From positions 1 through 42,454 of IMG/VR virus record IMGVR_UViG_3300029613_000341: a DNA stretch of 42,454 nt. The stretch is one strand, 5' to 3'. A model generated the notes under the pieces. The model had not been told where the DNA came from and searched no databases. It worked only from the letters and a program-made list of their open reading frames with translations. This DNA is from a virus. Its lineage: Duplodnaviria > Heunggongvirae > Uroviricota > Caudoviricetes. Below, piece by piece: positions 3,541 through 41,757 of this stretch (positions are counted from its first letter, which is position 1; each line of letters begins with the position of its first letter). Position numbers and translations under genes: made by a program.

Positions 3541-3957
3541 TTATTTTTGTTTAAGTCTTCTAAGCTTCATGCATTCTAATGAGAATAATAATAGAGTTGT
3601 GCTGTATATAAAGCCAGAGTTAGTTAATAACTTTAAATTTAATGCTTCAGGATTTTCACTGAGAAAGTGAAAGGCATAAACTAAGTATACAGCTAAAGTA
3701 GCCGTTCCAATTGTTGGTCCAATATCGCCTTGATCATGAGGTTCAAGGTTTACATTGAACTTGAAGATTAGCCATTCAAATCCCCAAGTAAAAAAAACAA
3801 CTAATATCATGGCTGCGAATAATTTCGCGATGTTATCTGCTGATGGATTCATCAGAACAGATTGTTTCTGAAAAAATTCACAAAGTGAGAGTCCGAAAAA
3901 AATAAAAAAAAGTGGTCTGGAACTAAATTTTTCAAAAACTTTGAATAGGGTTTCCAT
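3541..3957 (-). CDS. Small hydrophobic (membrane) protein, unknown function
   Basis: 138-aa ORF with several hydrophobic stretches (LFFIFFGLSL, LFAAMILVVFFTWGF, IGTATLAVYLVYAF), directly downstream of and co-oriented with the P4-type integrase; AT-rich. Confidence 0.35.
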   Translation of the reverse strand: METLFKVFEKFSSRPLFFIFFGLSLCEFFQKQSVLMNPSADNIAKLFAAMILVVFFTWGFEWLIFKFNVNLEPHDQGDIGPTIGTATLAVYLVYAFHFLSENPEALNLKLLTNSGFIYSTTLLLFSLECMKLRRLKQK

Positions 3958-3995: not shown

Positions 3996-5225
3996 TTAGG
4001 CTACCAGAGCATTTGATCTTTGAGCTTGAACGTAATCACTCCACCATTGCATCAAACTCTGTCGCTCTATCAGATATTCTGCACGATTGTATGCTGCGAT
4101 AATTTCATCTTTTTTCGAGTGGGCAAGCGCTGCCTCAAGAACTTCAGCTCTGAATTTACCAGACTCCTCTGCCGCTGTTCGTGCAATAGAACGCATACCG
4201 TGAGCTACAAGCTCGCCTCCGAACCCCATTCGGATGATAGCTGCGTTGGCTGTTTGTTCATGCATATGATTAAGAGGCGCTTTTATGCTGGGGAAAACCC
4301 ATTCTCTATGCCCACTTATTGATTTCATTAATTCAAGGATGCGCAAAGCTTCTTTACTCAAAGGAACTTTGTGAAGCTTTTTCATTTTCATGAAATCAGC
4401 AGGAATGTTCCAAATGCTGTTGGTTGTATCAATATCAGACCACCTTGCGCGAACGGCTTCACCCGGACGAACCCATGTCAACAATTGCCATTCAATTAGC
4501 ATACGTGTTTCCAACCGGATTGACGCATTCGTCAAAGATTCCATAAACCTTGGCAATTCGCTTGGGGGAAGGGCAGGCATATTTTGCTTTTTTGGTTTAC
4601 TGAATCTTTGACCAAGGTTGTCAGCCGGGTTGAACTCAATAAGTTCTTCAGTAGCTGCCCACCGGAAGATTTCATTCAGACGTGAAATGATACGGCGTAG
4701 AGTTTCCAATACGCCTCGTTGCTCAATAGGATCAAGGTGTTGTTTTAAGAGCTTAGGTCGGATCTCATTGATAGGGACATTACCCAGACCGGGAAAGACA
4801 TTTCTCTCTAAGCTGCGCCAGATGTCTGCTGCATGGTCTTGTGAGATACCTGATGTCTTTACCTTCTCATCTAACCATTTCCGCGCTACGGCTTGGAGAG
4901 TGTGCTCAGTAGCACTCTTTAATGCCTTCGCCTTATCGTTGTTATGGATTTGGGGATCAACACCATTTGCCAGAAAGGAGAGATATTCATCACGTAAGGC
5001 TCTGGCTCTTGCAAGGGTAAGGTGAGGATATGTCCCAAGGCTCATTTTGGTTCTTTTCTTGCTCACTGGTACTGCATACCTGAAATACCAATTTTTCTTG
5101 CCTCCTTTCGCCAAAGGAGCGATTCGTAGAATCAGACCATCACCGTCAAACAAGTTGATTTCTTTATCGGCTGGCTTGGTGCTTTTGATTTCAGTGTCAG
5201 TGAGCTTCTTAGCGATTTTTGCCAT
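3996..5225 (-). CDS. int: Tyrosine recombinase/integrase, P4 (CP4-57 IntA-like) family
   Basis: ORF 3996-5267; most likely start is the Met of MAKIAKKLTDTEIK (5225). N-terminal arm-binding region typical of P4-family integrases, C-terminal catalytic motifs (AHGMRSIART, AAYNRAEY). Lies ~170 bp from the ssrA 3'-end fragment, the usual tmRNA-int arrangement. Confidence 0.85.
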   Translation of the reverse strand: MAKIAKKLTDTEIKSTKPADKEINLFDGDGLILRIAPLAKGGKKNWYFRYAVPVSKKRTKMSLGTYPHLTLARARALRDEYLSFLANGVDPQIHNNDKAKALKSATEHTLQAVARKWLDEKVKTSGISQDHAADIWRSLERNVFPGLGNVPINEIRPKLLKQHLDPIEQRGVLETLRRIISRLNEIFRWAATEELIEFNPADNLGQRFSKPKKQNMPALPPSELPRFMESLTNASIRLETRMLIEWQLLTWVRPGEAVRARWSDIDTTNSIWNIPADFMKMKKLHKVPLSKEALRILELMKSISGHREWVFPSIKAPLNHMHEQTANAAIIRMGFGGELVAHGMRSIARTAAEESGKFRAEVLEAALAHSKKDEIIAAYNRAEYLIERQSLMQWWSDYVQAQRSNALVA

Positions 5226-5319
5226 TTTGGGACCCTCGGTTTTTGGACCCTTCTTAGTGGGTCCCATTCAGGGTGCCATAACTCGTAGTTCTCAGCAATT
5301 CTCACTGGACGACAATAGA

Positions 5320-5549: not shown

Positions 5550-6569
5550 TTATTTACCTTGAGAATCTATAGGTAAGATCCCCTTAAAAATCAAAAAATC
5601 TGGATCGTAAGCATAATTGGCTAAAAAATCACCGTTATTGGCAGTTGCTTGGAAAATAATTGTATTTTGATCAATTAGCATGTACAGAGATATCAATATA
5701 TCTCGTAATCCACGAAACATTTCTTTTATTTCTTTTTCATCTGAAAATGATGTTTCTATTCCTAAGTTTGATATCGGATCAAAAATCTCAAATTTGTTGA
5801 CTTCTCTTTCATAATTAACTCCTAGTTCTCTACACAGCCATACCACTTGTGCTTCAATGTTCTCTAAATTAGATATGTTAACTTGTTTTGGGTAAAGCTG
5901 ATTGTATCTTGCTATTTCATGCCCAATGTTGTTATATATATTTTCTAATTTTTCAAGGAATGATTTATCAACTTCATTGTTATATCCAGTGGAGATTGAG
6001 GATTTTGTGAATATTTTTTTATATAATGAGTAGGTATGAACTACAGATAGTTTAATTGTGTCTTTTTCGAAAGTTGTATTATCTCGACGAGAAAGGGTAA
6101 ATGACGGTAACGTTTTAAACATATCCGAATAATTCTTGAGGTGAGCGTAGTAAGCATCACTGCGGTTTTTCTCAGTCACTAGATCTATCTGTTGCTGTGT
6201 TTTCCTAATTTGATTTTCCGTTTGTATTGTTCTGTGAATGTTAGCGACTATAGCTACAAAGGGTATCGAAAGGGAAAGAAGAGCGATAGGCAACTTGCTT
6301 ATTTCAATGAAGTTTGAAAATCCATCAGCATCAAATTGAGGAGAGTGTCCCATCCATGAGAATATACCGAAGTATAAGGATGAGATAATAGGTATTCTGA
6401 TGGATTGTTTAAATAAATTTTGTTTTGTTAGCCTTTCCTCAGTCATTTCAAAATAATTATTATTTTTGTTTTTTGTGTATTCAATAAATAGATATATTAA
6501 ATAAAGAATTATAAGGAACGTAGATATTTCTGGTTTTTTTATATAGCTAATTACGAATTCTTGAGTCAT
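5550..6569 (-). CDS. Membrane protein of unknown function (prophage moron between attL and int)
   Basis: ORF 5550-6581; the Met at 6569-6567 overlaps the int stop as ATGA (TGA 6568-6566), suggesting translational coupling. About three N-terminal hydrophobic helices, ~200-aa soluble C-terminal part. Strongly AT-rich. Confidence 0.5.
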   Translation of the reverse strand: MTQEFVISYIKKPEISTFLIILYLIYLFIEYTKNKNNNYFEMTEERLTKQNLFKQSIRIPIISSLYFGIFSWMGHSPQFDADGFSNFIEISKLPIALLSLSIPFVAIVANIHRTIQTENQIRKTQQQIDLVTEKNRSDAYYAHLKNYSDMFKTLPSFTLSRRDNTTFEKDTIKLSVVHTYSLYKKIFTKSSISTGYNNEVDKSFLEKLENIYNNIGHEIARYNQLYPKQVNISNLENIEAQVVWLCRELGVNYEREVNKFEIFDPISNLGIETSFSDEKEIKEMFRGLRDILISLYMLIDQNTIIFQATANNGDFLANYAYDPDFLIFKGILPIDSQGK

Positions 6570-7594
6570 GGTGTGGTCCATTTTAATCTATATAAAGGGT
6601 TTTTTGATACTGCATCCTCTAAATGATCAGGTGCAAAATGTGCATAAACCATAGTCATTTTTATATCCGAGTGACCAAGGATGTCGCGCAACACGAGTAT
6701 GTTTCCGCCGTTCATCATAAAATGGCTAGCGAATGTATGGCGCAGTACGTGGGTGCATTGGCCCTCCGGTAGATCTATACCTGCCCGTTTTACTGCTCGT
6801 TCAAAGGCTTTTCTACATGGTGAGAATAACTTCCCTCTGTTCTTTGGGAGTTCGTCATACAGCTCCTGTGATATGGGTACTGTTCTGTTTTTCTTGCCTT
6901 TGGTCTTTGTATAAGTAATTCGGTATTTCGATATTTGGTGGCCCTGTAGGTTTTCTGCTTCACTCCATCGCGCACCAGTAGCCAGGCATATTTTTGCAAT
7001 CATTAGTAGGCTGGTGTTTTGAGATTCGGCGCAGGCATTAAGCAGGCGTTTGATTTCGTCCGTGGAAAGAAAAGCCAATTCACCTTCAGCAATTTTGAAG
7101 GTTGGAAGCCCTGCCAGTGGGTTTGGTGCGGACCAGTGCCCTAGTTTTTTCAATGTACCGAACACCGATGACAGATTGCGTTGTTCAAGATTTACCGTGC
7201 GGGGCTTAACCGGTGACATGAGCACGCCATCTTCGTTTTTGATCTCACCTTTTAATCTGGCTTCCCGGTACTTTGTGAAATCACCTGCTGTCAATTCAGA
7301 AGCGATGGGATCGCCAAGCCCATTACAAATGATTTTTAGCTTAGCCATTAATCGCTTAGGGTCAGCGAGTGTCTGACCGTACAGGGAATACCATTGCTCA
7401 ATCACTTCTGACAGTGGTCGCCGATCTTCCTTTTCTCCCAGCCAAGGTTTCTTGTTTACCTCATCCATGGTGAAATTCTCAAACGCAATGGCTTCGCCTT
7501 TCGTCGCAAATTGTTTGCGTACGCGTTTGCCATCTCTCCCGTTTGGGTAGCATTCACATAACCACTTTCCGTTCGGCTGTTTTCTGATCGTCAT
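6566..7594 (-). CDS. int: Phage integrase (P2/186-type tyrosine recombinase)
   Basis: 342-aa ORF with catalytic motifs HVLRHTFASH and LGHSDIKMTMVYAHF; recalled similarity to P2 Int; immediately downstream of cI. Confidence 0.9.
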   Translation of the reverse strand: MTIRKQPNGKWLCECYPNGRDGKRVRKQFATKGEAIAFENFTMDEVNKKPWLGEKEDRRPLSEVIEQWYSLYGQTLADPKRLMAKLKIICNGLGDPIASELTAGDFTKYREARLKGEIKNEDGVLMSPVKPRTVNLEQRNLSSVFGTLKKLGHWSAPNPLAGLPTFKIAEGELAFLSTDEIKRLLNACAESQNTSLLMIAKICLATGARWSEAENLQGHQISKYRITYTKTKGKKNRTVPISQELYDELPKNRGKLFSPCRKAFERAVKRAGIDLPEGQCTHVLRHTFASHFMMNGGNILVLRDILGHSDIKMTMVYAHFAPDHLEDAVSKNPLYRLKWTTP

Positions 7595-7596
7595 GA

Positions 7597-8235
7597 TTAG
7601 ATGCTCTTAATCACTTTTACCACACGCCCTACAACGTCTACGTCATCAACTGCACATTCAAAGGTTGTTTCTTCCTGATGAACAACAAGCTTATTTCCGG
7701 GAATTCGAGCTACTTTTACGATGCTTTTCACTCCATCAATATCAACAAGCCAGGAGCCATTACTGATCTGTTTTACAGATACATCAACAATAAAACTTTC
7801 TGTTGTCGTTTGTATGAATAGATAGTTTGACGAGTCGCCCTCAACCAACCTGCTATCTAATAAAATTTCGTCATATGATTGAAGTTCACCATTTCTTAAC
7901 TCTGTGTATTTGATACTGGGAGCTACGATTTTAGAAAGTGGTCTAATTGTGACGTCATTATCATTTTTGAGAATGTTTACGTCACTGTTATCTGCATACA
8001 TATCACCCTGTCCGGTTGCCAACCAAAGAAGCGAGATCCCGGTTTCTAGTGCACATTGAATTACCCATTCTGCTGGAAAACTATCTCTTAAGTATCTGTT
8101 TGCCATGGTACTTTTTGATACTTTTAAGTGTTCGCAGAGTTGTTGGCGTGAGCTGAAATTGTAGGCTTTTATCAGCCTGTTGATGGCATCACGACCCCCA
8201 CTATCGTTTCCACCCTTGATTAGACTCATAATCAA
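7597..8235 (-). CDS. cI: Immunity repressor, phage 186 CI-like
   Basis: Matches my recollection of 186 CI over its length (NRY.R, CALETG..L.WL.TG.G, GLWLVDI.G..SI, FEC..DD....GRVV.V); divergent from the early operon. Confidence 0.8.
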   Translation of the reverse strand: MIMSLIKGGNDSGGRDAINRLIKAYNFSSRQQLCEHLKVSKSTMANRYLRDSFPAEWVIQCALETGISLLWLATGQGDMYADNSDVNILKNDNDVTIRPLSKIVAPSIKYTELRNGELQSYDEILLDSRLVEGDSSNYLFIQTTTESFIVDVSVKQISNGSWLVDIDGVKSIVKVARIPGNKLVVHQEETTFECAVDDVDVVGRVVKVIKSI

Positions 8236-8626: not shown

Positions 8627-9136
8627 ATGTTTGATTACAAGATTTCCAAACATCCGCATTTTGATGAAGCCTGTAGAGCTTTTGCACTACGCCACAATAT
8701 GGCGAAGCTGGCAGAACGTGCAGGAATGAATGTTCAGACACTGCGAAACAAACTCAACCCAGATCAACTGCATCAGCTCACAGCGCCAGAAATCTGGTTG
8801 CTTACCGATCTGACTGAAGATTCAACGCTGGTAGATGGCTTTCTGGCACAGATTCACTGCCTGCCATGTGTACCAATTAATGAGGTGGCAAAAGAGAAAC
8901 TGCCGCATTACGTCATGAGTGCAACCGCAGAGATCGGGCGTGTTGCTGCAGGTGCGGTATCTGGCGATGTAAAAACCAGTGCAGGTCGTCGTGATGCGAT
9001 CAGCAGCATTAACTCTGTTACACGACTGATGGCGCTGGCTGCTGTTTCATTGCAGGCCCGTTTACAGGCTAATCCTGCGATGGCGAGTGCAGTTGATACC
9101 ATGACTGGTCTTGGTGCTTCATTCGGTTTGCTGTGA
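8627..9136 (+). CDS. cII: CII-like lysogeny establishment regulator (phage 186 CII family)
   Basis: 169 aa; near-collinear with 186 CII as recalled (MFD..SKHPH.DEACRAFA.RHNMAKLAERAGMNVQTLRNKLNP...LWLLTDLTEDSTLVDGFLAQIHCLPCVP). Confidence 0.8.
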   Translation: MFDYKISKHPHFDEACRAFALRHNMAKLAERAGMNVQTLRNKLNPDQLHQLTAPEIWLLTDLTEDSTLVDGFLAQIHCLPCVPINEVAKEKLPHYVMSATAEIGRVAAGAVSGDVKTSAGRRDAISSINSVTRLMALAAVSLQARLQANPAMASAVDTMTGLGASFGLL

Positions 9137-10427: not shown

Positions 10428-11281
10428 GCACCATCCTGAAATGGGCGGGAAATAAAACCGCCATTATGTCCGAACTGAAAAAACACCTTCCTGATGGCCC
10501 GCGACTGGTTGAACCTTTCGCGGGTTCCTGTGCTGTGATGATGGAGACGGATTACCCCAGCTATCTGGTTGCGGATATTAATCCTGATTTAATCAACCTC
10601 TATAAAAAGGTTGCCGCTGATTGTGAATCGTTTATATCTCGCGCCAGAGTTTTATTTGAGATCGCAAACAGGGAGGTGGCTTATTACAACATAAGGCAGG
10701 GGTTTAATTACTCCACTGAAATTACTGATTTCATGAAAGCGGTATATTTCCTGTATCTCAATCGTCATGGTTACCGTGGATTATGTTGCTATAACAAGAG
10801 CGGGCATTTCAACATTCCGTACGGTAATTATAAAAATCCGTATTTCCCTGAAAAAGAAATTCGCGCATTTGCAGAGAAAGCCCAGCGTGCAACGTTTATC
10901 TGCGCAAGCTTTGATGAAACGCTGGCGATGCTGCAGGTGGGGGATGTGGTGTATTGCGATCCGCCGTATGACGGTACGTTTTCCGGCTATCACACTGATG
11001 GTTTCACTGAAGATGACCAGTATCACCTGGCATCCGTTCTTGAACATCGGTCATCAGAAGGACATCCGGTCATTGTTTCTAACAGTGACACATCCCTGAT
11101 CCGTTCGCTTTATCGCAATTTTACTCACCACTACATCAAGGCAAAACGCAGCATCGGCGTAGCAGCTGGTGAGAGTAAATCTGCAACAGAAATCATCGCT
11201 GTTTCCGGGCCGCGCTGCTGGGTGGGATTTGATCCTTCGCGTGGCGTGGATAGTTCTGCCGTGTACGGAGTGCGTGCATGA
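10424..11281 (+). CDS. dam: DNA adenine methyltransferase (Dam-like orphan N6-adenine MTase)
   Basis: N-terminal KWAGNK...FAGSCAV (SAM-binding) and catalytic DPPY motif ([10 protein letters not shown]). Confidence 0.85.
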
Positions 11282-13692
11282 GCCATGCTGATATGAACAA
11301 CTGCAGCGGCTTTAACGAGGCCGCCGCAGCATTCTCATGGAACAGCCCGAAAAAGGCTATTAACCCTTATCTGGACCCGGCGGAAGTTGCGCCGGTTTCT
11401 GCGCTGTCAAACCTGATCACTCTGTACGCTACCGATAACGAGCAGGAACAACTGCGCCGCGAGGCACTGAGTGATCAGGTCTGGGAGCGTTATTTCTTTA
11501 ATGAATCCCGTGATCCTGTCCAGCGCGAAATGGAGCAGGATAAGCTCATTAGCCGGGCAAAGTTGGCGCATGAGCAGCAGCGTTTTAACCCGGACATGGT
11601 CATTCTGGCAGACGTCAGCGCCCAGCCCTCCCATATCAGCAAGCCGCTGATGCAACGTATTGAATACTTCAGTAGCCTGGGCAGGCCAAAGGCTTATTCC
11701 CGCTATTTACGTGAGACGATTAAGCCATGTCTGGAACGACTGGAGCATGTACGCGACAGTCAGCTATCCACTTCTTTTCGCTTTATGGCAAGCCATGAAG
11801 GGCTGGACGGCCTGCTAATCCTGCCTGAAATGAGTCAGGATCAGGTCAAACGCCTGTCCACCCTTGTAGCTGCGCATATGAGCATGTGCCTTGATGCAGC
11901 TTGTGGCGATTTGTATGCCACCGATGATGTTAAGCCAGAAGAAATCCGCAAGACATGGGAAAAGGTGGCAGCAGAAACCCTGCGTCTGGATGTCATCCCG
12001 CCTGCGTTTGAGCAACTCCGTAGGAAAAGAAACCGCCGTAAACCAGTGCCCTATGAACTCATTCCGGGTTCGCTGGCGCGTATGCTGTGCGCCGACTGGT
12101 GGTATCGGAAATTGTGGAAGATGCGTTGCGAATGGCGGGAAGAGCAGTTGCGTGCTGTCTGCCTGGTCAGCAAAAAAGCATCTCCCTATGTCAGCTATGA
12201 AGCCGTGATGCATAAACGTGAGCAGCGCCGTAAGTCGCTGGAGTTTTTCCGTTCTCATGAACTGGTGAACGAAGACGGCGACACGCTGGATATGGAAGAT
12301 GTGGTAAACGCCAGTAGTAGCAACCCGGCGCATCGCCGCAATGAGATGATGGCATGTGTTAAAGGTCTGGAGCTTATCGCGGAAATGCGCGGTGACTGCG
12401 CCGTTTTCTACACCATCACCTGTCCGTCACGTTTCCATTCCACGCTAAATAACGGCAGGCCCAACCCGACCTGGACAAATGCGACGGTAAGACAAAGCAG
12501 TGATTATCTGGTCGGCATGTTTGCTGCATTTCGTAAGGCGATGCACAAAGCCGGATTGCGCTGGTATGGCGTGCGGGTGGCTGAGCCGCATCATGACGGT
12601 ACAGTTCACTGGCACCTGTTGTGTTTTATGCGCAAAAAAGATCGCCGCGCCATTACTGCTTTGTTGCGTAAGTTTGCCATTCGTGAAGACCGCGAGGAGC
12701 TGGGTAATAACACAGGACCACGCTTTAAGTCTGAGTTGATTAACCCGCGCAAAGGTACGCCAACAAGCTACATCGCGAAATACATCAGTAAGAACATTGA
12801 CGGGCGTGGTCTGGCTGGCGAGATCAGCAAGGAAACGGGTAAATCCCTGCGTGATAACGCTGAATACGTTAATGCCTGGGCGTCTCTGCATCGTGTTCAG
12901 CAATTCCGCTTCTTTGGCATTCCGGGGCGTCAGGCTTACCGTGAACTGCGATTGCTGGCTGGTCAGGCGGCAAGGCAACAGGGGAACAAAAAAGCAGGTG
13001 CGCCGGTACTGGATAACCCACGCCTTGATGCCATCCTGGCTGCTGCTGATGCTGGTTGCTTTGCCACCTACATAATGAAGCAGGGCGGCGTACTGGTTCC
13101 CCGTAAATATCACCTCATCAGAACCGCTTATGAAATCAACGAAGAGCCGACCGCCTATGGCGATCACGGTATTCGTATTTATGGCATCTGGTCACCCATT
13201 GCAGAGGGCAAGATCTGCACTCATGCAGTGAAGTGGAAAATGGTTCGTAAGGCCGTTGACGTTCAGGAGGCGGCAGCCGACCAGGGCGCTTGCGCCCCTT
13301 GGACTCGTGGCAATAACTGTCCCCTTGCTGAAAATTTGAACCAACAGGAGAAAGATAAATCAGCTGATGGGGACCCCAGAACGGACATTACCAGCATGGA
13401 TGACAAGGAGTTGCACGATTACCTGCACAGTATGAACAAAAAAGAGCGCCGGGAACTGGCTGCAAGATTACGCCTGGTGAAACCGAAACGGCGTAAAGAC
13501 TACAAACAGCGAATTACAGACCATCAGAGACTGCAGCTCGTCTATGAGCTGAAGTCCAGAGGATTTGATGGTAGCGAGAAAGAGGTCGATTTACTCCTTC
13601 GCGGCGGCAGTATTCCGTCAGGAGCAGGCTTGCGTATTTTCTATCGGAACCAGCGTTTGCGGGAAGATGATAAGTGGCGGAACCTGTATTAA
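11278..13692 (+). CDS. A: Replication initiation protein A (rolling-circle HUH endonuclease, P2 gpA family)
   Basis: 804 aa; HUH motif VHWHLL and tyrosine pair YIAKYISKN; position after the early genes matches P2/186. Confidence 0.9.
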
Positions 13693-13784
13693 TTACGCGG
13701 ATTAACAATTCGTGCTCTTAATAATACCAGGCATATCAGGCTGATGAACGTAAAAAAACGTTTTACATCAGTAAGATTATTATA

Positions 13785-13804
13785 TACTGTAAATATAAAC
13801 AGTG
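13785..13804 (+). promoter_or_regulatory. LexA (SOS) box
   Basis: TACTGTAAATATAAACAGTG: CTGT-N8-ACAG with an AT-rich centre, ~45 bp upstream of the 13845 ORF. Confidence 0.6.
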
Positions 13805-13844
13805 GTTATGTATACAGTATTGCTTTGGTGTCATAGGAGGAAAG

Positions 13845-14033
13845 ATGCAGGACTATTTTTTGGAGTCTTTGAAGCTCCAGCGCATTGATTTTTTTCTTAA
13901 GCTTGTAGCGGCTAGTGAGTGTAGTGATGAAGAGAAGGGGCTGGCCCTGCAGTGGGTTTCTGAATTGACTGATGAACTCATGGCAAAAATCAGAACTCAC
14001 GAATACAACCGCTCAATGGATGTCATCAGTTGA
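13845..14033 (+). CDS. Small protein downstream of the LexA box (possibly the N-terminal part of a Tum-like antirepressor module)
   Basis: 62-aa ORF with strong RBS (AGGAGGAAAG before the ATG); same position as the SOS-inducible tum operon of phage 186. Confidence 0.45.
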   Translation: MQDYFLESLKLQRIDFFLKLVAASECSDEEKGLALQWVSELTDELMAKIRTHEYNRSMDVIS

Positions 14034-14043
14034 GGTGACTTTT

Positions 14044-14277
14044 ATGCGCATTGAAATAATGATCGATAAAGAGCAGAAGATTAGCCAGTCTACCCTGGAC
14101 GCTCTGGAGTCCGAGCTTTACCGCAACCTGCGCCCCCTGTATCCCAAAACGGTAATTCGTATCCGTAAAGGTAGCTCTAACGGTGTGGAACTGACCGGAC
14201 TGAAACTGGACGAAGAAAAAAAACAAGTGATGAAAATTATGCAGAAGGTGTGGGAAGACGACAGCTGGCTGCATTAA
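14044..14277 (+). CDS. DinI-like protein (DinI/Tum C-terminal domain family)
   Basis: 77 aa, MRIEIMIDKEQKISQSTLDALESELYRNL...KIMQKVWEDDSW resembles DinI as recalled; downstream of the LexA box. Confidence 0.7.
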   Translation: MRIEIMIDKEQKISQSTLDALESELYRNLRPLYPKTVIRIRKGSSNGVELTGLKLDEEKKQVMKIMQKVWEDDSWLH

Positions 14278-14591
14278 GAAACGTTGCCCCCAGGAGGATT
14301 CATTCTGATGGGGGCTAGTTTGGGCAACGAGTGAAATAAGGTGTAAGGTCATTTTGATAAATGATCGTCTGCTTTGTGCAAGATGCAAACGTTTCTTCTG
14401 CTAACTTTCGTTAATTAACGAATGGCAGACTAATTCGCAACGGATAATCTGAATTTTGTAAGATTATGGGCATTTCTATAAAATTTACTAATAATAACCT
14501 TACAATGTACACTACCGATTGAATTTTCCATAGTTGGCCTTTGGCTCTACTTACCATCTATGTTTATGTATTTTATCAAAATGGACTAAAA

Positions 14592-16484
14592 ATGAACAAT
14601 ACGTACATCAAAGACTATATAGAATATTACCTTAGCCTTACAACTGAACCTCAATACGCCATTATGCTTAAAGGTGCTTGGGGATCAGGTAAAACTTGGT
14701 TCATTGAACAAGTTCTTGAAGAATATAAGCAGAAGAATTCAGAGTTTAAATTTCTAAAAGTGAGTTTGTATGGCGTCAACTCTATTAAACAGATTGAAGA
14801 TGAGTTCTATCGTCAACTTCATCCTGTCCTATCAAACAAAGCCCTTATCTTTGGTGCAAATGTACTAAAAAATACGCTTAAGGCTACTTTCAAGATCGAT
14901 CTCAATGGCGATAATAAATCTGACGTTGATGTCAATACCAATGTTCCCACCATTAATCTTAACGATTTTAGTAGAAAACCAGATGGTTTTGTGCTGGTCT
15001 TTGATGATATCGAGAGAGCTGGTATAGATTTACCAATTTTATTTGGATATATAAACCACTTTGTAGAAGTAAACGGATACAAAGCGATCTTGGTTGCCAA
15101 TGAAGAAGAAATAATCAATAGAGAAAAGCGAATAAATAATGATGATGAGAAATCTAGCAGCGAATACATGAGAACAAAAGAAAAGCTTGTTGGTAAAACA
15201 TTTGAAGTAACGTCAGATTTACATAGTGCTTGTAATGTTTTTTTGGGCGTAATTAGCAGTTTACACGTTGCTAATATATTTAAAGAAGATATGCAGGCCA
15301 TAGAAGACATCTATGTGTCGGCGAAATATAATAATCTAAGACACTTGAGGCAGTTCTTTCTTGATGTACAACGCATCATTTCCCTTTTGGGAAATAAATA
15401 TGTCAGCAACGACGATTTTATGAGGGTATTTTTCCAGCAGTTGTTAATTTTCTCGATAGAGTACCGGGGAGGGAACCTTAACTACGAGGAATTCGATTCA
15501 ATCAGCAATGTTAATTATGGTATGTTTTTAGGTAAAGAGCGTACCAAAACTAAGTATGACATGATCGTCGAGAAATATTCATCTCCTGTATTAACCGAGA
15601 AGTTACTGGATGGTGCGTACTGGAGGGAGCTAATCTGTGATGGAAAGGTAACGAGTGAACTTCTCGCTCAGTTGGATATTACGCGATTTTTTAGAAGCAC
15701 CGATGCCCAAGCATGGGAGTATTTGTGGAACTATCGAGAACTTAATGAAACTATGCTTAATGAGCAGTACGCCATTGCCAAGGATAATCTATTTTCAGGT
15801 AAGATCACTTCCTTAGGTGAACTCCTGATGACCGCGAGTATTTTGCTGGACATGGCGAAAGAAGGTCTAACAACAGATGATGTTCATGATCTCATAAATG
15901 AGACAAAACAGAATATAAATAATTATTATAATAGACTTAGAGCTGAAGATATACATAAGGAATATGCGCAAACGCATTATAACGAATTAAGGGCATGGCG
16001 TGGCTTTGGTTTTCTTGACAGGGATAGCGATGAATTCAAACTCATTATTGAGCATATTGAGATAGCGAAGAAGAAACGGTTTGATGAATCAATTCCGGAA
16101 TTTGCGTTGCAGTTCAGCGATGAGTTGCAAAGGGGAAACTTATCGTTTGTATCTGAATTGAGTCATTCTAATAATAGGCAGTTAAATCTTCATAATGTGC
16201 CTTTTTTACACTTGGTTCCTCCTGAAGTTTTCATTGAAAGCTATAGGAAACTTGACCCAGTCCTCATGAGGAAACTGGCATTTAGCTTGCGGAATCGTTA
16301 TTCTGATGGGGATGCTAGAACCAGACTGACCGAAGAATACAACTGGTTGATTAACCTAAAAGAGATAGCTGTAGATTTCACTCAAAACGCAGCCAATAAC
16401 TCCTTTCAGGTTTTTCACGTAAAGTTTTTTATTGACTATGTATTAACTAGCGCAATCAAATTCTTTACTGAGGGAACTGATTAA
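14592..16484 (+). CDS. P-loop NTPase (Walker A GAWGSGKT, Walker B VLVFDD; possibly KAP-type), ~630 aa
   Basis: ATG at 14592 (ORF open from an alternative TTG at 14541); Walker A and B motifs present; long C-terminal region without motifs I recognise; strongly AT-rich; followed by a terminator. Confidence 0.7.
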   Translation: MNNTYIKDYIEYYLSLTTEPQYAIMLKGAWGSGKTWFIEQVLEEYKQKNSEFKFLKVSLYGVNSIKQIEDEFYRQLHPVLSNKALIFGANVLKNTLKATFKIDLNGDNKSDVDVNTNVPTINLNDFSRKPDGFVLVFDDIERAGIDLPILFGYINHFVEVNGYKAILVANEEEIINREKRINNDDEKSSSEYMRTKEKLVGKTFEVTSDLHSACNVFLGVISSLHVANIFKEDMQAIEDIYVSAKYNNLRHLRQFFLDVQRIISLLGNKYVSNDDFMRVFFQQLLIFSIEYRGGNLNYEEFDSISNVNYGMFLGKERTKTKYDMIVEKYSSPVLTEKLLDGAYWRELICDGKVTSELLAQLDITRFFRSTDAQAWEYLWNYRELNETMLNEQYAIAKDNLFSGKITSLGELLMTASILLDMAKEGLTTDDVHDLINETKQNINNYYNRLRAEDIHKEYAQTHYNELRAWRGFGFLDRDSDEFKLIIEHIEIAKKKRFDESIPEFALQFSDELQRGNLSFVSELSHSNNRQLNLHNVPFLHLVPPEVFIESYRKLDPVLMRKLAFSLRNRYSDGDARTRLTEEYNWLINLKEIAVDFTQNAANNSFQVFHVKFFIDYVLTSAIKFFTEGTD

Positions 16485-16788: not shown

Positions 16789-16896
16789 CGCGCGCTGTAT
16801 GCCTGAAGTGGCTAAAATAGTATCTGTCATAGGTACAACTTAGTGTAGTATCATCCATATAATCCATTGAAATATAATCGACTCTCATTAGAGGTG

Positions 16897-17895
16897 ATGA
16901 TGAACGGAATCTGGTACGAAAACACTCATACACGCATTCCTAATTTTGAAACAACAGTACATCAAAAGCACAAATTCGGTTACGCTTATGAAACAACAAG
17001 TCATTTTGTGCATCTGTATGGGCGTGACGTGGGATTTAATGTAATATCAGTTGGGTTAACTGTTATTGAGCAACGAAGTGGAACTCTCAATGATTGGGTT
17101 CGGAGAGTATTTGGGGCTCAGAACATATCTCCTTTAGATAATGAAATTGGACATGTAACTAGGGGAGTGTGGCGGCCATCCTTATATTATGTCAATGATA
17201 CAGAAACAGCATTAGGTATCGATGAGTTTGAAAAAAGAGCAACAGAGCAAGCTCTAAGAGTTTTGATAGAAAAACTCGATGATATTTTTCTATATGTAGA
17301 ACCAAGTGCCCATGGTTTGATTTCTTACAGTCATAAATGTAGAGAGCTATTAATTCTTGCTTGTACTGAGGTTGAAAATCAATGGGTGTCAATCATTGGT
17401 AATTCGAATTTATCTCGTTCAAATGGTCGATACTCCACAAATGATTATGTGAAATTATTAGATAAGTGTTATTTGTCTGAATATAAAATTCAATATTTGA
17501 ATTATGACGGATTAAGGCATTTCAAACCTTTTGATGGGTGGAATGCAAGTACCCCTACAACATCTTTGTCATGGTATAATGCATATAATAAAACTAAACA
17601 TGATAGATCAGGAGCATTCCACTTTTCCACTTTAGAAAATGTGATGGATGCAGTTGCTGCTTGTGTTGTAATGTACTGTGTAAAATATGGCCCGTTTAGC
17701 TTATTGGAAGCCAATACGTCTCTATCAACGATCGTTAATCAAAACTTTTCAATTTCATTAGATAATAGCAATCCAGCAAGTTATTACATTCCTGAAATTG
17801 AACTTCCACCGGATACAAGAACGGATTTATTAATTTATGATTGTTATCGAGAAAACCATAATAAAGCATGGGTCACTGATCCCCTAGTGCTCTAA
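16897..17895 (+). CDS. Hypothetical protein (~332 aa), unknown function
   Basis: ORF 16867-17895 (alternative TTG); ATG at 16897/16900 with GAGGTG RBS; AT-rich; no motif I recognise. Confidence 0.5.
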   Translation: MMNGIWYENTHTRIPNFETTVHQKHKFGYAYETTSHFVHLYGRDVGFNVISVGLTVIEQRSGTLNDWVRRVFGAQNISPLDNEIGHVTRGVWRPSLYYVNDTETALGIDEFEKRATEQALRVLIEKLDDIFLYVEPSAHGLISYSHKCRELLILACTEVENQWVSIIGNSNLSRSNGRYSTNDYVKLLDKCYLSEYKIQYLNYDGLRHFKPFDGWNASTPTTSLSWYNAYNKTKHDRSGAFHFSTLENVMDAVAACVVMYCVKYGPFSLLEANTSLSTIVNQNFSISLDNSNPASYYIPEIELPPDTRTDLLIYDCYRENHNKAWVTDPLVL

Positions 17896-17951: not shown

Positions 17952-18578
17952 TTATATATCAATAGAGTTTTGAAATTTTAATAACTGCCATCTTGTTAAT
18001 AGTGGTTTTATTGCTATGTTGTGTTGGGTATTTATTTTTAAACCTTCGAATTTCGAATATCCATTTTCCAAGGCTTCCACTGAAAAATGAATGGTTTTTG
18101 TTATCGGGTTTATAGCACAAAGATTTAGGTCATATAAAGTATGAATGTCACTTCTGAGCAATAATCCATTGCTAATATGATTGTGACTATCGTTTCGATA
18201 TACATTAATGTGAGCAGCATCAAGAATATCAACAAGCTTACAGCCCGTAACCGCACAAGTAGGATTTGATTTTAATAGCTGGTCGCGAAATGTTTTTTGC
18301 CCACTTCGTTGTTTTATTTGCCGTTCTACAATTTGCCGTTGATCTTCACCCATTAAAGTGGGGGTGTCTTTATCAGCTTCGCTGGCGTTGAGCTCCAGAA
18401 TAATAGTATGTTGGGCGGTAAGCAAAGCAACAGCCCATTGATAGTTAACTTCTTGGATGGACATTTGCCCATTGTAGCGTGGAGTTTCATCTATAAATTG
18501 TGACATTGTAATATTGGATAATTTACGGTACTGGTTGCCGCAGTATGCTATAAATTCTTTAGCTGGCTCAAAAACCAC
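17952..18578 (-). CDS. HNH endonuclease domain protein (C-terminal part of an apparently split gene)
   Basis: HNH motif CAVTGC...LDAAHI...NGLLLRSDIHTLYDLNL; annotated start is GTG; the frame stays open upstream to a stop at 18669-18671, overlapping the end of the upstream ORF. Confidence 0.7.
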   Translation of the reverse strand: MVFEPAKEFIAYCGNQYRKLSNITMSQFIDETPRYNGQMSIQEVNYQWAVALLTAQHTIILELNASEADKDTPTLMGEDQRQIVERQIKQRSGQKTFRDQLLKSNPTCAVTGCKLVDILDAAHINVYRNDSHNHISNGLLLRSDIHTLYDLNLCAINPITKTIHFSVEALENGYSKFEGLKINTQHNIAIKPLLTRWQLLKFQNSIDI

Positions 18579-41394: not shown

Positions 41395-41439
41395 TGGTGG
41401 AGCTGGCGGGAGTTGAACCCGCGTCCGAAATTCCTACAT
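41395..41439. repeat. att direct repeat (phage core overlapping the ssrA 3' end)
   Basis: Identical to 5391-5435. Confidence 0.85.
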
Positions 41440-41757
41440 CCTCGGTACTACATGCTTAGTCAGTCTTTACATTCGCTTGCCAGCTGCGGACGGACACGCC
41501 ACTAACAAACTAGCCTGATTAAGTTTTAACGCTTCAACCCCAGGCAGGGCTTCCACGCGATCTCTTTTGGGTTTGACCTCTCTTGATCCCCGTCCTAAGA
41601 GCGGAGGCTAGGGAGAGAGGGCTCTAAGCAGGTTATTAAGCTGCTAAAGCGTAGTTTTCGTCGTTTGCGACTATTTTTTGCGGCTTTTTACGAGGCCAAC
41701 CGCCCCTCGGCATGCACCTTGGGTTTCGCAAATCCCGTCGAATCCAGAATCAGCCCC
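41395..41757 (-). ncRNA. ssrA: tmRNA (SsrA), 363 nt
   Basis: Reverse complement begins GGGGCTGATTCTGGATTCGACGGG and ends ...GTTCAACTCCCGCCAGCTCCACCA; contains the tag reading frame GCAAACGACGAAAACTACGCTTTAGCAGCTTAA (ANDENYALAA-stop); matches E. coli ssrA as I recall it. Confidence 0.95.

What the first reader, a model, noticed from the sequence alone, without database searches (positions are those of the whole stretch)
13785..14277. SOS-controlled module: LexA box upstream of a small ORF and a DinI-like gene
A near-consensus LexA box (TACTGTAAATATAAACAGTG, 13785-13804) precedes a 62-aa ORF and a 77-aa DinI-like ORF. This mirrors the LexA-regulated tum antirepressor operon at the right end of phage 186, through which DNA damage induces the prophage. 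Here the coding capacity is in two separate frames, so this may be a two-protein variant or a disrupted tum.
Basis: partly seen in the sequence, partly recalled or inferred. Interest (0 to 1): 0.45.

Follow-up and report, generated by a model that had tools for sequence, protein, structure and literature searches.

The report
Split tum SOS induction operon
This is the DNA-damage switch of a Fels-2-like prophage in E. coli: a LexA-repressed promoter drives a small anti-repressor gene and a DinI-like gene, an arrangement already described for phages Fels-2 and PsP3 and found in about a fifth of complete E. coli genomes.

Summary
A LexA box (13785-13804) lies upstream of a 62-aa ORF (13845-14033) and a 77-aa DinI-family ORF (14044-14277), just downstream of the gpA replicase gene. 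The host element is a P2/186-family prophage integrated at E. coli ssrA.

The region is 96% identical to Fels-2 (STM2728 plus the DinI gene). It has the same layout as PsP3 tumA/tumB. The literature already states that Fels-2 and PsP3 carry tum split in two.

- **62-aa ORF:** it is a remote homologue of the 186 Tum N-terminal half. Pairwise BLASTP finds nothing, but hhalign gives 96.5% probability and PHROG profiles cross-hit.
- **DinI ORF:** it is 40% identical to Tum residues 71-145.
- **Not a broken tum:** both genes are under strong purifying selection (dN/dS 0.03-0.12).

- **Double operator:** there are two overlapping LexA boxes, and they align base for base with colicin, cloacin and pesticin operators.
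- **One TumA, many CI types:** an identical TumA is paired with at least 17 CI types. These share mainly the N-terminal DNA-binding domain.

Verdict: real, functional, ordinary and already known. Interest is low.

The parts
13762..13767 (+). Putative -35 hexamer TTTACA of the SOS promoter
   Evidence: It lies 17 nt upstream of TACTGT. It is invariant in 53 distinct operator segments from 83 loci. It is also kept in SopEPhi, Yersinia MLG42 and Klebsiella phi4.1, whose spacer sequences differ. The design matches the annotated 186 p95, TTCACA-N18-TACTGT. The assignment is inferred; the simple promoter scan did not call it.
13785..13804 (+). LexA box 1 (distal), TACTGTAAATATAAACAGTG, overlapping the putative -10
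   Evidence: It has a perfect CTGT-N8-ACAG core and is the best LexA-like 20-mer in the window. It is nearly invariant in relatives.
13800..13819 (+). LexA box 2 (proximal), CAGTGGTTATGTATACAGTA, sharing CAGTG with box 1
   Evidence: It is the second-best LexA-like 20-mer in the window. It is 19/20 identical to the proximal SOS box of colicin N, and the whole double box aligns with the colicin N, pesticin and cloacin operators. In relatives the CAG half-site is kept while the centre varies. LexA binding is not tested.
13845..14033 (+). tumA-like gene, 62 aa: putative CI antirepressor (Fels-2 STM2728 orthologue)
   Evidence: It is 98.4% identical to the Fels-2 protein and matches phrog_698 at 3.6e-38. 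It cross-hits the same PHROG profiles as the 186 Tum N-half. hhalign against the Tum N-half family gives 96.5% probability, E = 8e-10. dN/dS is 0.06-0.12. AlphaFold2 predicts a helical hairpin with pLDDT 88.
14044..14277 (+). tumB, 77 aa: DinI-like protein
   Evidence: It matches Pfam DinI at 4e-23. It is 40% identical to 186 Tum 71-145, E = 1e-23. It matches DinI structures 1GHH and 7YWA at 1e-6. dN/dS is 0.03-0.10. It falls below the NCBIfam cut-off for chromosomal DinI, 44.5 against 111 bits.
14279..14321 (+). Stem-loop after tumB, a possible partial terminator and boundary of the variable cargo slot
   Evidence: The RNA fold is -20.4 kcal/mol, z = -2.4. Two other sequence variants from relatives fold at the same place, z = -2.8 and -3.0. 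The annotated 186 terminator t95a occupies the same position. The U-tract is weak, so function is inferred.
7597..8235 (-). 186-type CI immunity repressor, 212 aa: the presumed target of the antirepressor
   Evidence: It matches Pfam Phage_CI_repr (1.4e-32) and Phage_CI_C (2.3e-35). It is 79.7% identical to Fels-2 CI and 30.6% to 186 CI.

Best explanation
This is the SOS induction operon of a Fels-2-like (P2/186-family) prophage integrated at E. coli ssrA, in its split tumA/tumB form.

Proposed mechanism:
1. In the lysogen, LexA occupies a double, overlapping operator (13785-13819). The operator covers the -10 and the start region of a promoter (TTTACA-N17-TACTGT) and keeps the operon off.
2. 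DNA damage activates RecA, LexA cleaves itself, and the operon is transcribed.
3. The 62-aa TumA-like protein is a helical hairpin homologous to the N-terminal half of 186 Tum. It binds the 186-type CI repressor (7597-8235) and stops it binding DNA. This releases the early lytic promoter and induces the prophage.
4. The 77-aa DinI-like TumB binds RecA filaments and modulates the SOS signal. The internally initiated 77-aa product of 186 tum is annotated as doing the same.

Shown here: the sequence elements, their homology, their conservation, purifying selection, and the presence of the CI partner.
Taken from work on 186, PsP3 and Fels-2: LexA binding, CI binding and RecA binding.
For: - **Sequence and annotation:** the region is 96% identical to Fels-2 gpA / STM2728 / DinI. 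PsP3 annotates the same layout as tumA ('similar to 5' end 186 tum; UV induction of prophage') and tumB. The 186 record annotates p95, its LexA site and tum.
- **Homology:** the DinI ORF is 40% identical to Tum 71-145. The 62-aa ORF is linked to the Tum N-half by PHROG cross-hits and by hhalign at 96.5% probability.
- **Real genes:** dN/dS is 0.03-0.12 for both.
- **Conserved architecture:** TumA-like genes at 37-52% identity always sit directly after gpA, in prophages with a 186-type CI and CII. Each has a perfect CTGT-N8-ACAG 33-39 nt upstream of its start codon.
- **Partner:** a 186-type CI is present in the window.
- **Operator:** the double box aligns with colicin-type operators. The literature says these bind two LexA dimers (PMC2994835).
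- **Literature:** PMC3121763 states that tum is split in Fels-2 and PSP3 and that the upstream PSP3 gene encodes the antirepressor. PMC7708051 describes the 186 mechanism.
- **From memory only:** Bunny et al. 2002 reported that the Fels-2 tum homologue causes lexA-null lethality. That paper is not held here.
Against: - Pairwise BLASTP finds no alignment between the 62-aa ORF and 186 Tum. The homology is at profile level only, about 18% identity.
- No experiment on this exact protein family could be read here. The PSP3 antirepressor result is a personal communication cited second-hand.
- An identical TumA is paired with at least 17 CI types at 33-79% identity. This is unexpected for a specific repressor-binding partner unless it recognises the conserved N-terminal domain.
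- Box 2 lacks the left CTG (it has GTG) and might not bind LexA on its own.
- The promoter hexamers are inferred; the consensus scan did not call them.
Confidence: 0.85

Rival explanations
1. The two ORFs are the remains of a single tum gene broken by a frameshift or stop codon. The module would be a decaying pseudogene and the prophage no longer SOS-inducible through it.
For: The two ORFs together correspond to the two halves of the 146-aa 186 Tum, and they lie in different frames.
Against: - Both ORFs show dN/dS of 0.03-0.12 at dS of about 1.
- Each has its own strong Shine-Dalgarno sequence.
- The same two-gene layout is kept in Fels-2, SopEPhi, PsP3, Yersinia and Klebsiella phages and in 1125 of 5426 E. 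coli genomes.
- Stand-alone forms dominate both the TumA-like family and the 186-type Tum N-half family.
- 186 itself makes the DinI-like half separately from an internal GTG start.
Confidence: 0.02
2. The operon is SOS-controlled, but the 62-aa protein is not a CI antirepressor. It might be a partner or regulator of DinI/RecA or have some other SOS-time function, with induction proceeding by another route.
For: - There is no detectable pairwise similarity to Tum.
- It matches no Pfam, NCBIfam or PADLOC family and no solved structure.
- An identical protein is paired with very different CI repressors.
- The fold is a generic helical hairpin with no informative structural neighbours.
Against: - Profile-level homology to the Tum N-half is register-consistent over residues 1-46.
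- The gene occurs with a LexA box even where no DinI gene follows (ESSI2 phages, L092-L095), so it is not a DinI accessory.
- Every locus whose upstream early region was examined has a 186-type CI.
- PsP3 tumA is annotated as responsible for UV induction.
- TumA type tracks the CI N-domain type.
Confidence: 0.1
3. Only box 1 is a working LexA operator. Box 2 (13800-13819) is a degenerate remnant with no role, so the resemblance to colicin operators carries no functional meaning.
For: - Box 2 has GTG instead of CTG in its left half-site and scores much worse than box 1: rough heterology index 7.7-11 against 4.3.
- Its centre is the most variable part of the operator.
- 186, PsP3, ESSI2 and other relatives manage with a single box.
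Against: - The 32-nt double pattern is expected 0.03 times per window.
- Box 2 is 19/20 identical to the proximal colicin N box, which has the same GTG. Colicin double boxes are reported to bind two LexA dimers (PMC2994835).
- The right half-site CAG of box 2 is kept in almost all of the 43 upstream variants seen in 80 loci, and in the diverged SopEPhi, MLG42 and phi4.1 operators.
Confidence: 0.3

Closest known systems
Fels-2 STM2728 / STM2726.1 (DinI family) and PsP3 tumA / tumB: the split tum operon
   Same: - It has the same position after gpA and the same two-gene layout with a 10-nt gap.
- The DNA is 96% identical to Fels-2, and the small protein is 98.4% identical.
- The double LexA box is the same as in Fels-2.
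- PsP3 has the same layout and is annotated tumA/tumB.
   Different: - It differs from Fels-2 essentially only in the cargo downstream of tumB: a KAP NTPase here, a 243-aa ORF in Fels-2.
- It differs from PsP3 in three ways. PsP3 TumA belongs to the 186-type subfamily (phrog_1993), while the window protein belongs to phrog_698. PsP3 has a single LexA box. Its CI is only about 34% identical.
Coliphage 186 p95-tum SOS operon (Tum antirepressor, 146 aa)
   Same: - A LexA-repressed promoter lies right after gene A, and the box overlaps the -10 TACTGT.
- The N-terminal antirepressor module and the C-terminal DinI-like module are both present.
- A stem-loop follows the operon, then a further gene.
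- The target is a 186-type CI.
   Different: - In 186 the two modules form one polypeptide, and the DinI-like part is also made from internal starts. Here they are two genes in different frames.
- The N-module is only about 18% identical and is detectable only by profiles.
- 186 has one LexA box, while the window has two.
Colicin / cloacin / pesticin double overlapping SOS boxes
   Same: Two 20-nt LexA boxes share CAGTG, 15 bp centre to centre. The 36-nt operator aligns almost base for base, and the proximal box is 19/20 identical to that of colicin N.
   Different: It controls a prophage antirepressor rather than a bacteriocin. In colicin promoters the boxes start just after the -10, while here box 1 overlaps it. 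No common ancestry of the flanking DNA is evident.
Gifsy prophage dinI-gfoA / gftA operons (Lemire et al. 2011)
   Same: A LexA-controlled operon pairs a DinI homologue with a small antirepressor that inactivates a non-cleavable repressor. Those antirepressors act in trans on other prophages (PMC3121763).
   Different: The gene order is reversed (dinI first). The repressor family (GfoR/GtgR) is different. No sequence relation to the Gifsy antirepressors was tested here.

Membership tests
186-type tum SOS operon | LexA operator overlapping the promoter of the operon | tested here: met
   There is a perfect CTGT-N8-ACAG at 13787-13802, and TACTGT serves as the putative -10, 17 nt after TTTACA. 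186 has TTCACA-N18-TACTGT. The match is by sequence only.
186-type tum SOS operon | LexA actually binds and represses; the operon is induced by DNA damage | not testable with these tools
   This needs EMSA or footprinting and reporter assays.
186-type tum SOS operon | Located immediately downstream of the replication gene A in a P2/186-family genome | tested here: met
   gpA (Pfam Phage_GPA, 1e-127) ends at 13692 and the operon starts about 70 nt later. Distant relatives have the same position.
186-type tum SOS operon | Antirepressor module homologous to the Tum N-terminal half | tested here: met
   hhalign gives 96.5% probability, E = 8e-10, over residues 1-46. 186 Tum hits the ORF's own PHROG (phrog_698) at 2.4e-5 in the same register. 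Pairwise BLASTP is negative.
186-type tum SOS operon | DinI-like module | tested here: met
   It is 40% identical to Tum 71-145, E = 1e-23, and matches Pfam DinI at 81.9 bits.
186-type tum SOS operon | Both modules in one 146-aa polypeptide | tested here: not met
   There are two ORFs in different frames, separated by a stop codon and 10 nt. The module therefore belongs to the split tumA/tumB form of PsP3 and Fels-2, not the fused 186 form.
186-type tum SOS operon | Cognate 186-type CI repressor in the same prophage | tested here: met
   The ORF at 7597-8235(-) matches PF07022 and PF16452. CII (PF06892) and an integrase are adjacent.
186-type tum SOS operon | The protein binds CI and blocks its DNA binding | not testable with these tools
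   There is only indirect support. TumA type tracks the CI N-domain: 57-97% identity where TumA is identical, 40-46% where TumA is divergent.
DinI family (Pfam PF06183) | Score above the Pfam gathering threshold over the whole domain | tested here: met
   It scores 81.9 bits against 24.2, covering profile positions 1-63 of 63.
Chromosomal DinI orthologue (NCBIfam NF007893 equivalog) | Score above the curated equivalog cut-off | tested here: not met
   It scores 44.5 bits against a cut-off of 111. It is DinI-like, not the host dinI orthologue.
Colicin-type double SOS operator | Two LexA boxes overlapping by 5 nt (shared CAGTG), 15 bp centre to centre | tested here: met
   Alignment A4 with the colicin N, pesticin and cloacin promoters shows this. 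The double pattern is expected 0.03 times per window.
Colicin-type double SOS operator | Binding of two LexA dimers | not testable with these tools
   This is reported for colicin operators in PMC2994835. It is not tested for this site.

The most novel reading that the evidence does not exclude
The Fels-2-type TumA may be a generalist antirepressor. One invariant 62-aa protein would serve at least 17 heteroimmune CI repressors by binding their conserved N-terminal DNA-binding domain, rather than the divergent oligomerisation domain.

On this reading, one SOS-induced prophage could induce co-resident heteroimmune P2-family prophages in trans.

The colicin-like double LexA operator would give this clade a tighter, higher-threshold induction than the single-box 186 and PsP3 type.
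Probability: 0.4. Interest if true: 0.4.

Novelty: already known. Interest (0 to 1): 0.15.

Why it matters
This module decides when a very common family of E. coli, Salmonella and Klebsiella prophages switches from dormancy to lytic growth after DNA damage, including damage from antibiotics such as quinolones.

The finding adds nothing new in kind. It re-identifies the Fels-2/PsP3 split tum operon.

One practical point is annotation. RefSeq still labels the antirepressor gene 'hypothetical protein' in more than a thousand E. coli genomes, and PHROGs lists its family as unknown function.

Two side observations could be followed up cheaply:
- the colicin-type double LexA operator;
- one identical TumA serving many CI immunity types. 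This bears on cross-induction between co-resident prophages.

Tried and rejected
- **Pairwise BLASTP:** the 62-aa ORF against 186 Tum gave no alignment. The MAFFT identity of 23% was uninformative, so profiles were needed.
- **Family libraries:** Pfam, NCBIfam and PADLOC gave no family for the 62-aa ORF. A profile search of PDB sequences found nothing.
- **Structure search:** Foldseek of the AlphaFold2 helical hairpin against BFVD gave no match at E <= 0.001, as expected for so simple a fold.
- **Promoter and terminator scan:** it did not call the SOS promoter. Its only terminator-like hit (14022-14039) lies at the end of the tumA coding sequence and was not pursued.
- **Rfam:** it found only the tmRNA, with nothing at the post-tumB hairpin.
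- **Search for a fused form:** the search of 1.84 billion representative proteins found 66 relatives, almost all stand-alone proteins of 50-100 aa. None was a TumA-DinI fusion of this subfamily.
- **Papers not held:** Bunny et al. 2002 (PMC151935) and Gillor et al. 2008 (PMC2729051) could not be read. I therefore cannot say whether the double box was already described for Fels-2.
- **First literature search:** the search for TumA/TumB as words returned only irrelevant papers.
- **Biased sample:** both IMG/VR scans returned only loci with 100% identical TumA. That set was not used for dN/dS of tumA. Diverged phage records were used instead.
- **Pseudogene hypothesis:** rejected on the selection and conservation data.

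Full report
**1. What is there**

The window carries a P2/186-family prophage integrated next to ssrA.
- The tmRNA gene is at 41395-41757 on the minus strand.
- The ssrA-smpB flank is 99.8% identical to E. coli chromosomes.
- The prophage has an integrase (6566-7594, minus), a 186-type CI repressor (7597-8235, minus; Pfam PF07022 and PF16452), a CII (8627-9136), a Dam methylase and the gpA replicase (11278-13692).

The finding lies directly after gpA.
- The sequence TACTGTAAATATAAACAGTG is at 13785-13804.
- A 62-aa ORF runs from 13845 to 14033, preceded by AGGAGG.
- Ten bases later, a 77-aa ORF runs from 14044 to 14277, preceded by GAGGTGA, in a different frame.
- The 77-aa protein is a full-length DinI-family domain: Pfam E = 4e-23, 81.9 bits against a cut-off of 24.2.

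**2. Is it more than chance?**

The bare core CTGT-N8-ACAG is not rare in 42 kb: 0.46 are expected. Three things make the site significant.
- **Closeness to the full consensus.** It is the best LexA-like 20-mer in the window. This comes from a rough heterology-index scan whose matrix I built from E. coli boxes recalled from memory.
- **Position.** It lies in front of a DinI-family gene.
- **Conservation.** TumA-like genes only 37-52% identical, in other P2-family prophages, each have a perfect CTGT-N8-ACAG 33-39 nt upstream of the start codon.

**3. The operator is double**

The second-best LexA-like 20-mer in the window is 13800-13819, CAGTGGTTATGTATACAGTA. It overlaps box 1 by the five bases CAGTG.

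A 53-nt query containing both boxes hit 214 plasmid records, many of them small mobilizable plasmids of 4-9 kb. In the three I opened, the match lies just upstream of colicin N, pesticin and cloacin genes. The 36-nt operators align almost base for base. Box 2 is 19/20 identical to the proximal colicin N box, including GTG in place of CTG.

[quoted passage not shown] The double pattern is expected 0.03 times per window.

The distribution in relatives is as follows.
- The double box is shared by Fels-2, SopEPhi, Yersinia MLG42 and Klebsiella phi4.1.
- 186, PsP3, the ESSI2 phages and more distant relatives have a single box.
- In 53 distinct operator variants from 83 loci, the -35 TTTACA is invariant and box 1 is nearly so. 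Box 2 keeps its right half-site while its centre varies.

Relative to the promoter, box 1 corresponds to the 186 box: the window has TTTACA-N17-TACTGT and 186 has TTCACA-N18-TACTGT. Box 2 is the extra, downstream one. Whether box 2 binds LexA is not shown.

**4. Identity of the two genes**

The region is 96% identical to Fels-2. There the genes are STM2728 (hypothetical) and STM2726.1 (DinI family, noted as similar to PsP3 TumB). PsP3 annotates the same layout in two parts:
- tumA: 'similar to 5' end 186 tum; UV induction of prophage';
- tumB: 'similar to dinI and 3' end of 186 tum'.

The 186 record annotates p95, its LexA site, the 146-aa Tum and shorter internally initiated products. These include a 77-aa product from a GTG start that corresponds to the DinI-like half.

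The homology evidence is this.
- **DinI ORF:** it is 40% identical to Tum 71-145, E = 1e-23.
- **62-aa ORF, pairwise:** BLASTP finds no alignment to Tum.
- **62-aa ORF, PHROG profiles:** it hits phrog_698, phrog_8554 and phrog_1993. The N-half of 186 Tum hits the same three, in the same register. PsP3 TumA hits phrog_1993.
- **62-aa ORF, hhalign:** I aligned 28 diverse family members against an alignment of the 186 Tum N-half family. The result was 96.5% probability, E = 8e-10, over residues 1-46 of both.

The 62-aa ORF is therefore a remote homologue of the antirepressor half of Tum.

AlphaFold2 predicts a two-helix hairpin with pLDDT 88. No solved structure or informative structural neighbour was found.

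**5. Not a broken gene**

- Against SopEPhi, MLG42 and phi4.1, dS is about 1, while dN/dS is 0.06-0.12 for tumA and 0.03-0.10 for tumB.
- The pair occurs in 1125 of 5426 complete E. coli genomes, annotated 'hypothetical protein' and 'DinI-like family protein'.
- Stand-alone small proteins dominate both the TumA-like family (66 representatives, almost all 50-100 aa) and the 186-type Tum N-half family.
- The TumA-like gene also occurs with its LexA box but without any DinI gene, in the ESSI2 phages and loci L092-L095. It is therefore the core of the module, and DinI is an optional companion.

**6. Mechanism**

By homology and by the literature on 186 (PMC7708051; PMC3121763), the most likely sequence of events is:
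1. LexA represses the operon.
2. DNA damage removes LexA.
3. TumA inactivates CI by binding it, and lytic development starts.
4. TumB (DinI-like) modulates RecA filaments.

Lemire et al. state explicitly that Fels-2 and PSP3 have tum split into two halves. [quoted passage not shown] 2002 and a personal communication. From memory, Bunny et al. 2002 showed that the Fels-2 tum homologue is responsible for the lethality of lexA null mutations in Salmonella. That paper is not held here.

**7. A wrinkle worth recording**

Among the 68 IMG/VR contigs that encode a 100% identical TumA and have a CI match:
- gpA and CII, where found, are at least 90% identical to the window's;
- CI falls into at least 17 types, 33-79% identical to the window CI;
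- what those CIs share is the N-terminal helix-turn-helix domain, 57-97% identical (mean 71%);
- the C-terminal domain is only 23-72% identical (mean 35%).

Phages with divergent TumA or Tum (186, PsP3, L092, L094, L096) have CI N-domains only 40-46% identical.

This fits an antirepressor that contacts the DNA-binding domain and is not immunity-specific. The alternative is that it reflects where recombination breakpoints fall. It is an inference, not a result.

**8. Downstream**

A stem-loop at 14279-14321 follows tumB, where 186 has its partial terminator t95a. Relatives carry at least three different sequences there that all fold.

Beyond the stem-loop the content varies between relatives. 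In the window it is a KAP-family P-loop NTPase that matches the PADLOC defence candidate PDC-S49. None of the 80 IMG/VR loci with an identical TumA contains it.

**9. Verdict**

- The module is the known split tum operon of Fels-2-like prophages and is very common.
- Novelty: already known. Interest: low (0.15).
- The double colicin-type operator and the one-TumA-many-CI pattern are modest additions that could be tested easily.

Noticed in passing
window 14541-16484 (+), with 16867-17895 (+) and 17952-18578 (-): The cargo slot after tumB holds a 647-aa KAP-family P-loop NTPase. It matches the PADLOC defence candidate PDC-S49 (E = 1e-159) and phrog_4740. Two further genes follow: a 342-aa ORF with no family and an HNH-like ORF. 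None of the 80 IMG/VR loci with an identical TumA carries the NTPase, so this is a variable, probably anti-phage, cargo position.
   Followed up: partly
window 14279-14321 (+); relatives L007-L086: A stem-loop directly follows tumB, flanked by conserved ACGTTGC and CAACGAG. Relatives carry at least three different stem sequences that all fold (z = -2.4 to -3.0). One variant has G-U pairs, which suggests an RNA-level element on the + strand. It occupies the position of the 186 partial terminator t95a but has only a weak U-tract. There is no Rfam match.
   Followed up: partly
window 3600-3619: The third-best LexA-like site in the window is TGCTGTATATAAAGCCAGAG (CTG-N10-CAG). It lies in an AT-rich stretch within the 3' part of a 138-aa ORF (3541-3957, minus) that has no Pfam match, outside the prophage.
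   Followed up: no
window 3996-5267 (-) and 5550-6581 (-): A second integrase of P4 type (423 aa, with an Arm-DNA-bind_3 domain) lies to the left of the prophage integrase. This suggests a tandem island at the ssrA attachment site. A 343-aa ORF with no family overlaps the end of the prophage int gene.
   Followed up: no
IMG/VR loci L098-L177 (CI genes); PsP3 L180 151-1011: Several CI repressors paired with the identical TumA are 308-318 aa long and carry a duplicated N-terminal helix-turn-helix domain. PsP3 CI is also long, at 286 aa.
   Followed up: partly
L087 (ESSI2_ev015), L088 (Cronobacter ESSI-2), L092-L095: In these P2-family phages a TumA-like gene with a single perfect LexA box sits after gpA without any DinI gene. 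It abuts an oppositely oriented gene that is an Ogr/Delta-type regulator in L092-L095, labelled 'transcriptional regulator' in ESSI-2 and 'putative phage gene' in ESSI2_ev015. In the Cronobacter ESSI-2 record the TumA-like gene is not annotated at all.
   Followed up: partly
window 13972-14277 (+): A 101-aa ORF in the tumB frame starts at an upstream ATG inside tumA. RefSeq calls the 77-aa form (234 nt) in the closest E. coli match, and only that start has a Shine-Dalgarno sequence. The longer ORF is probably not used.
   Followed up: partly
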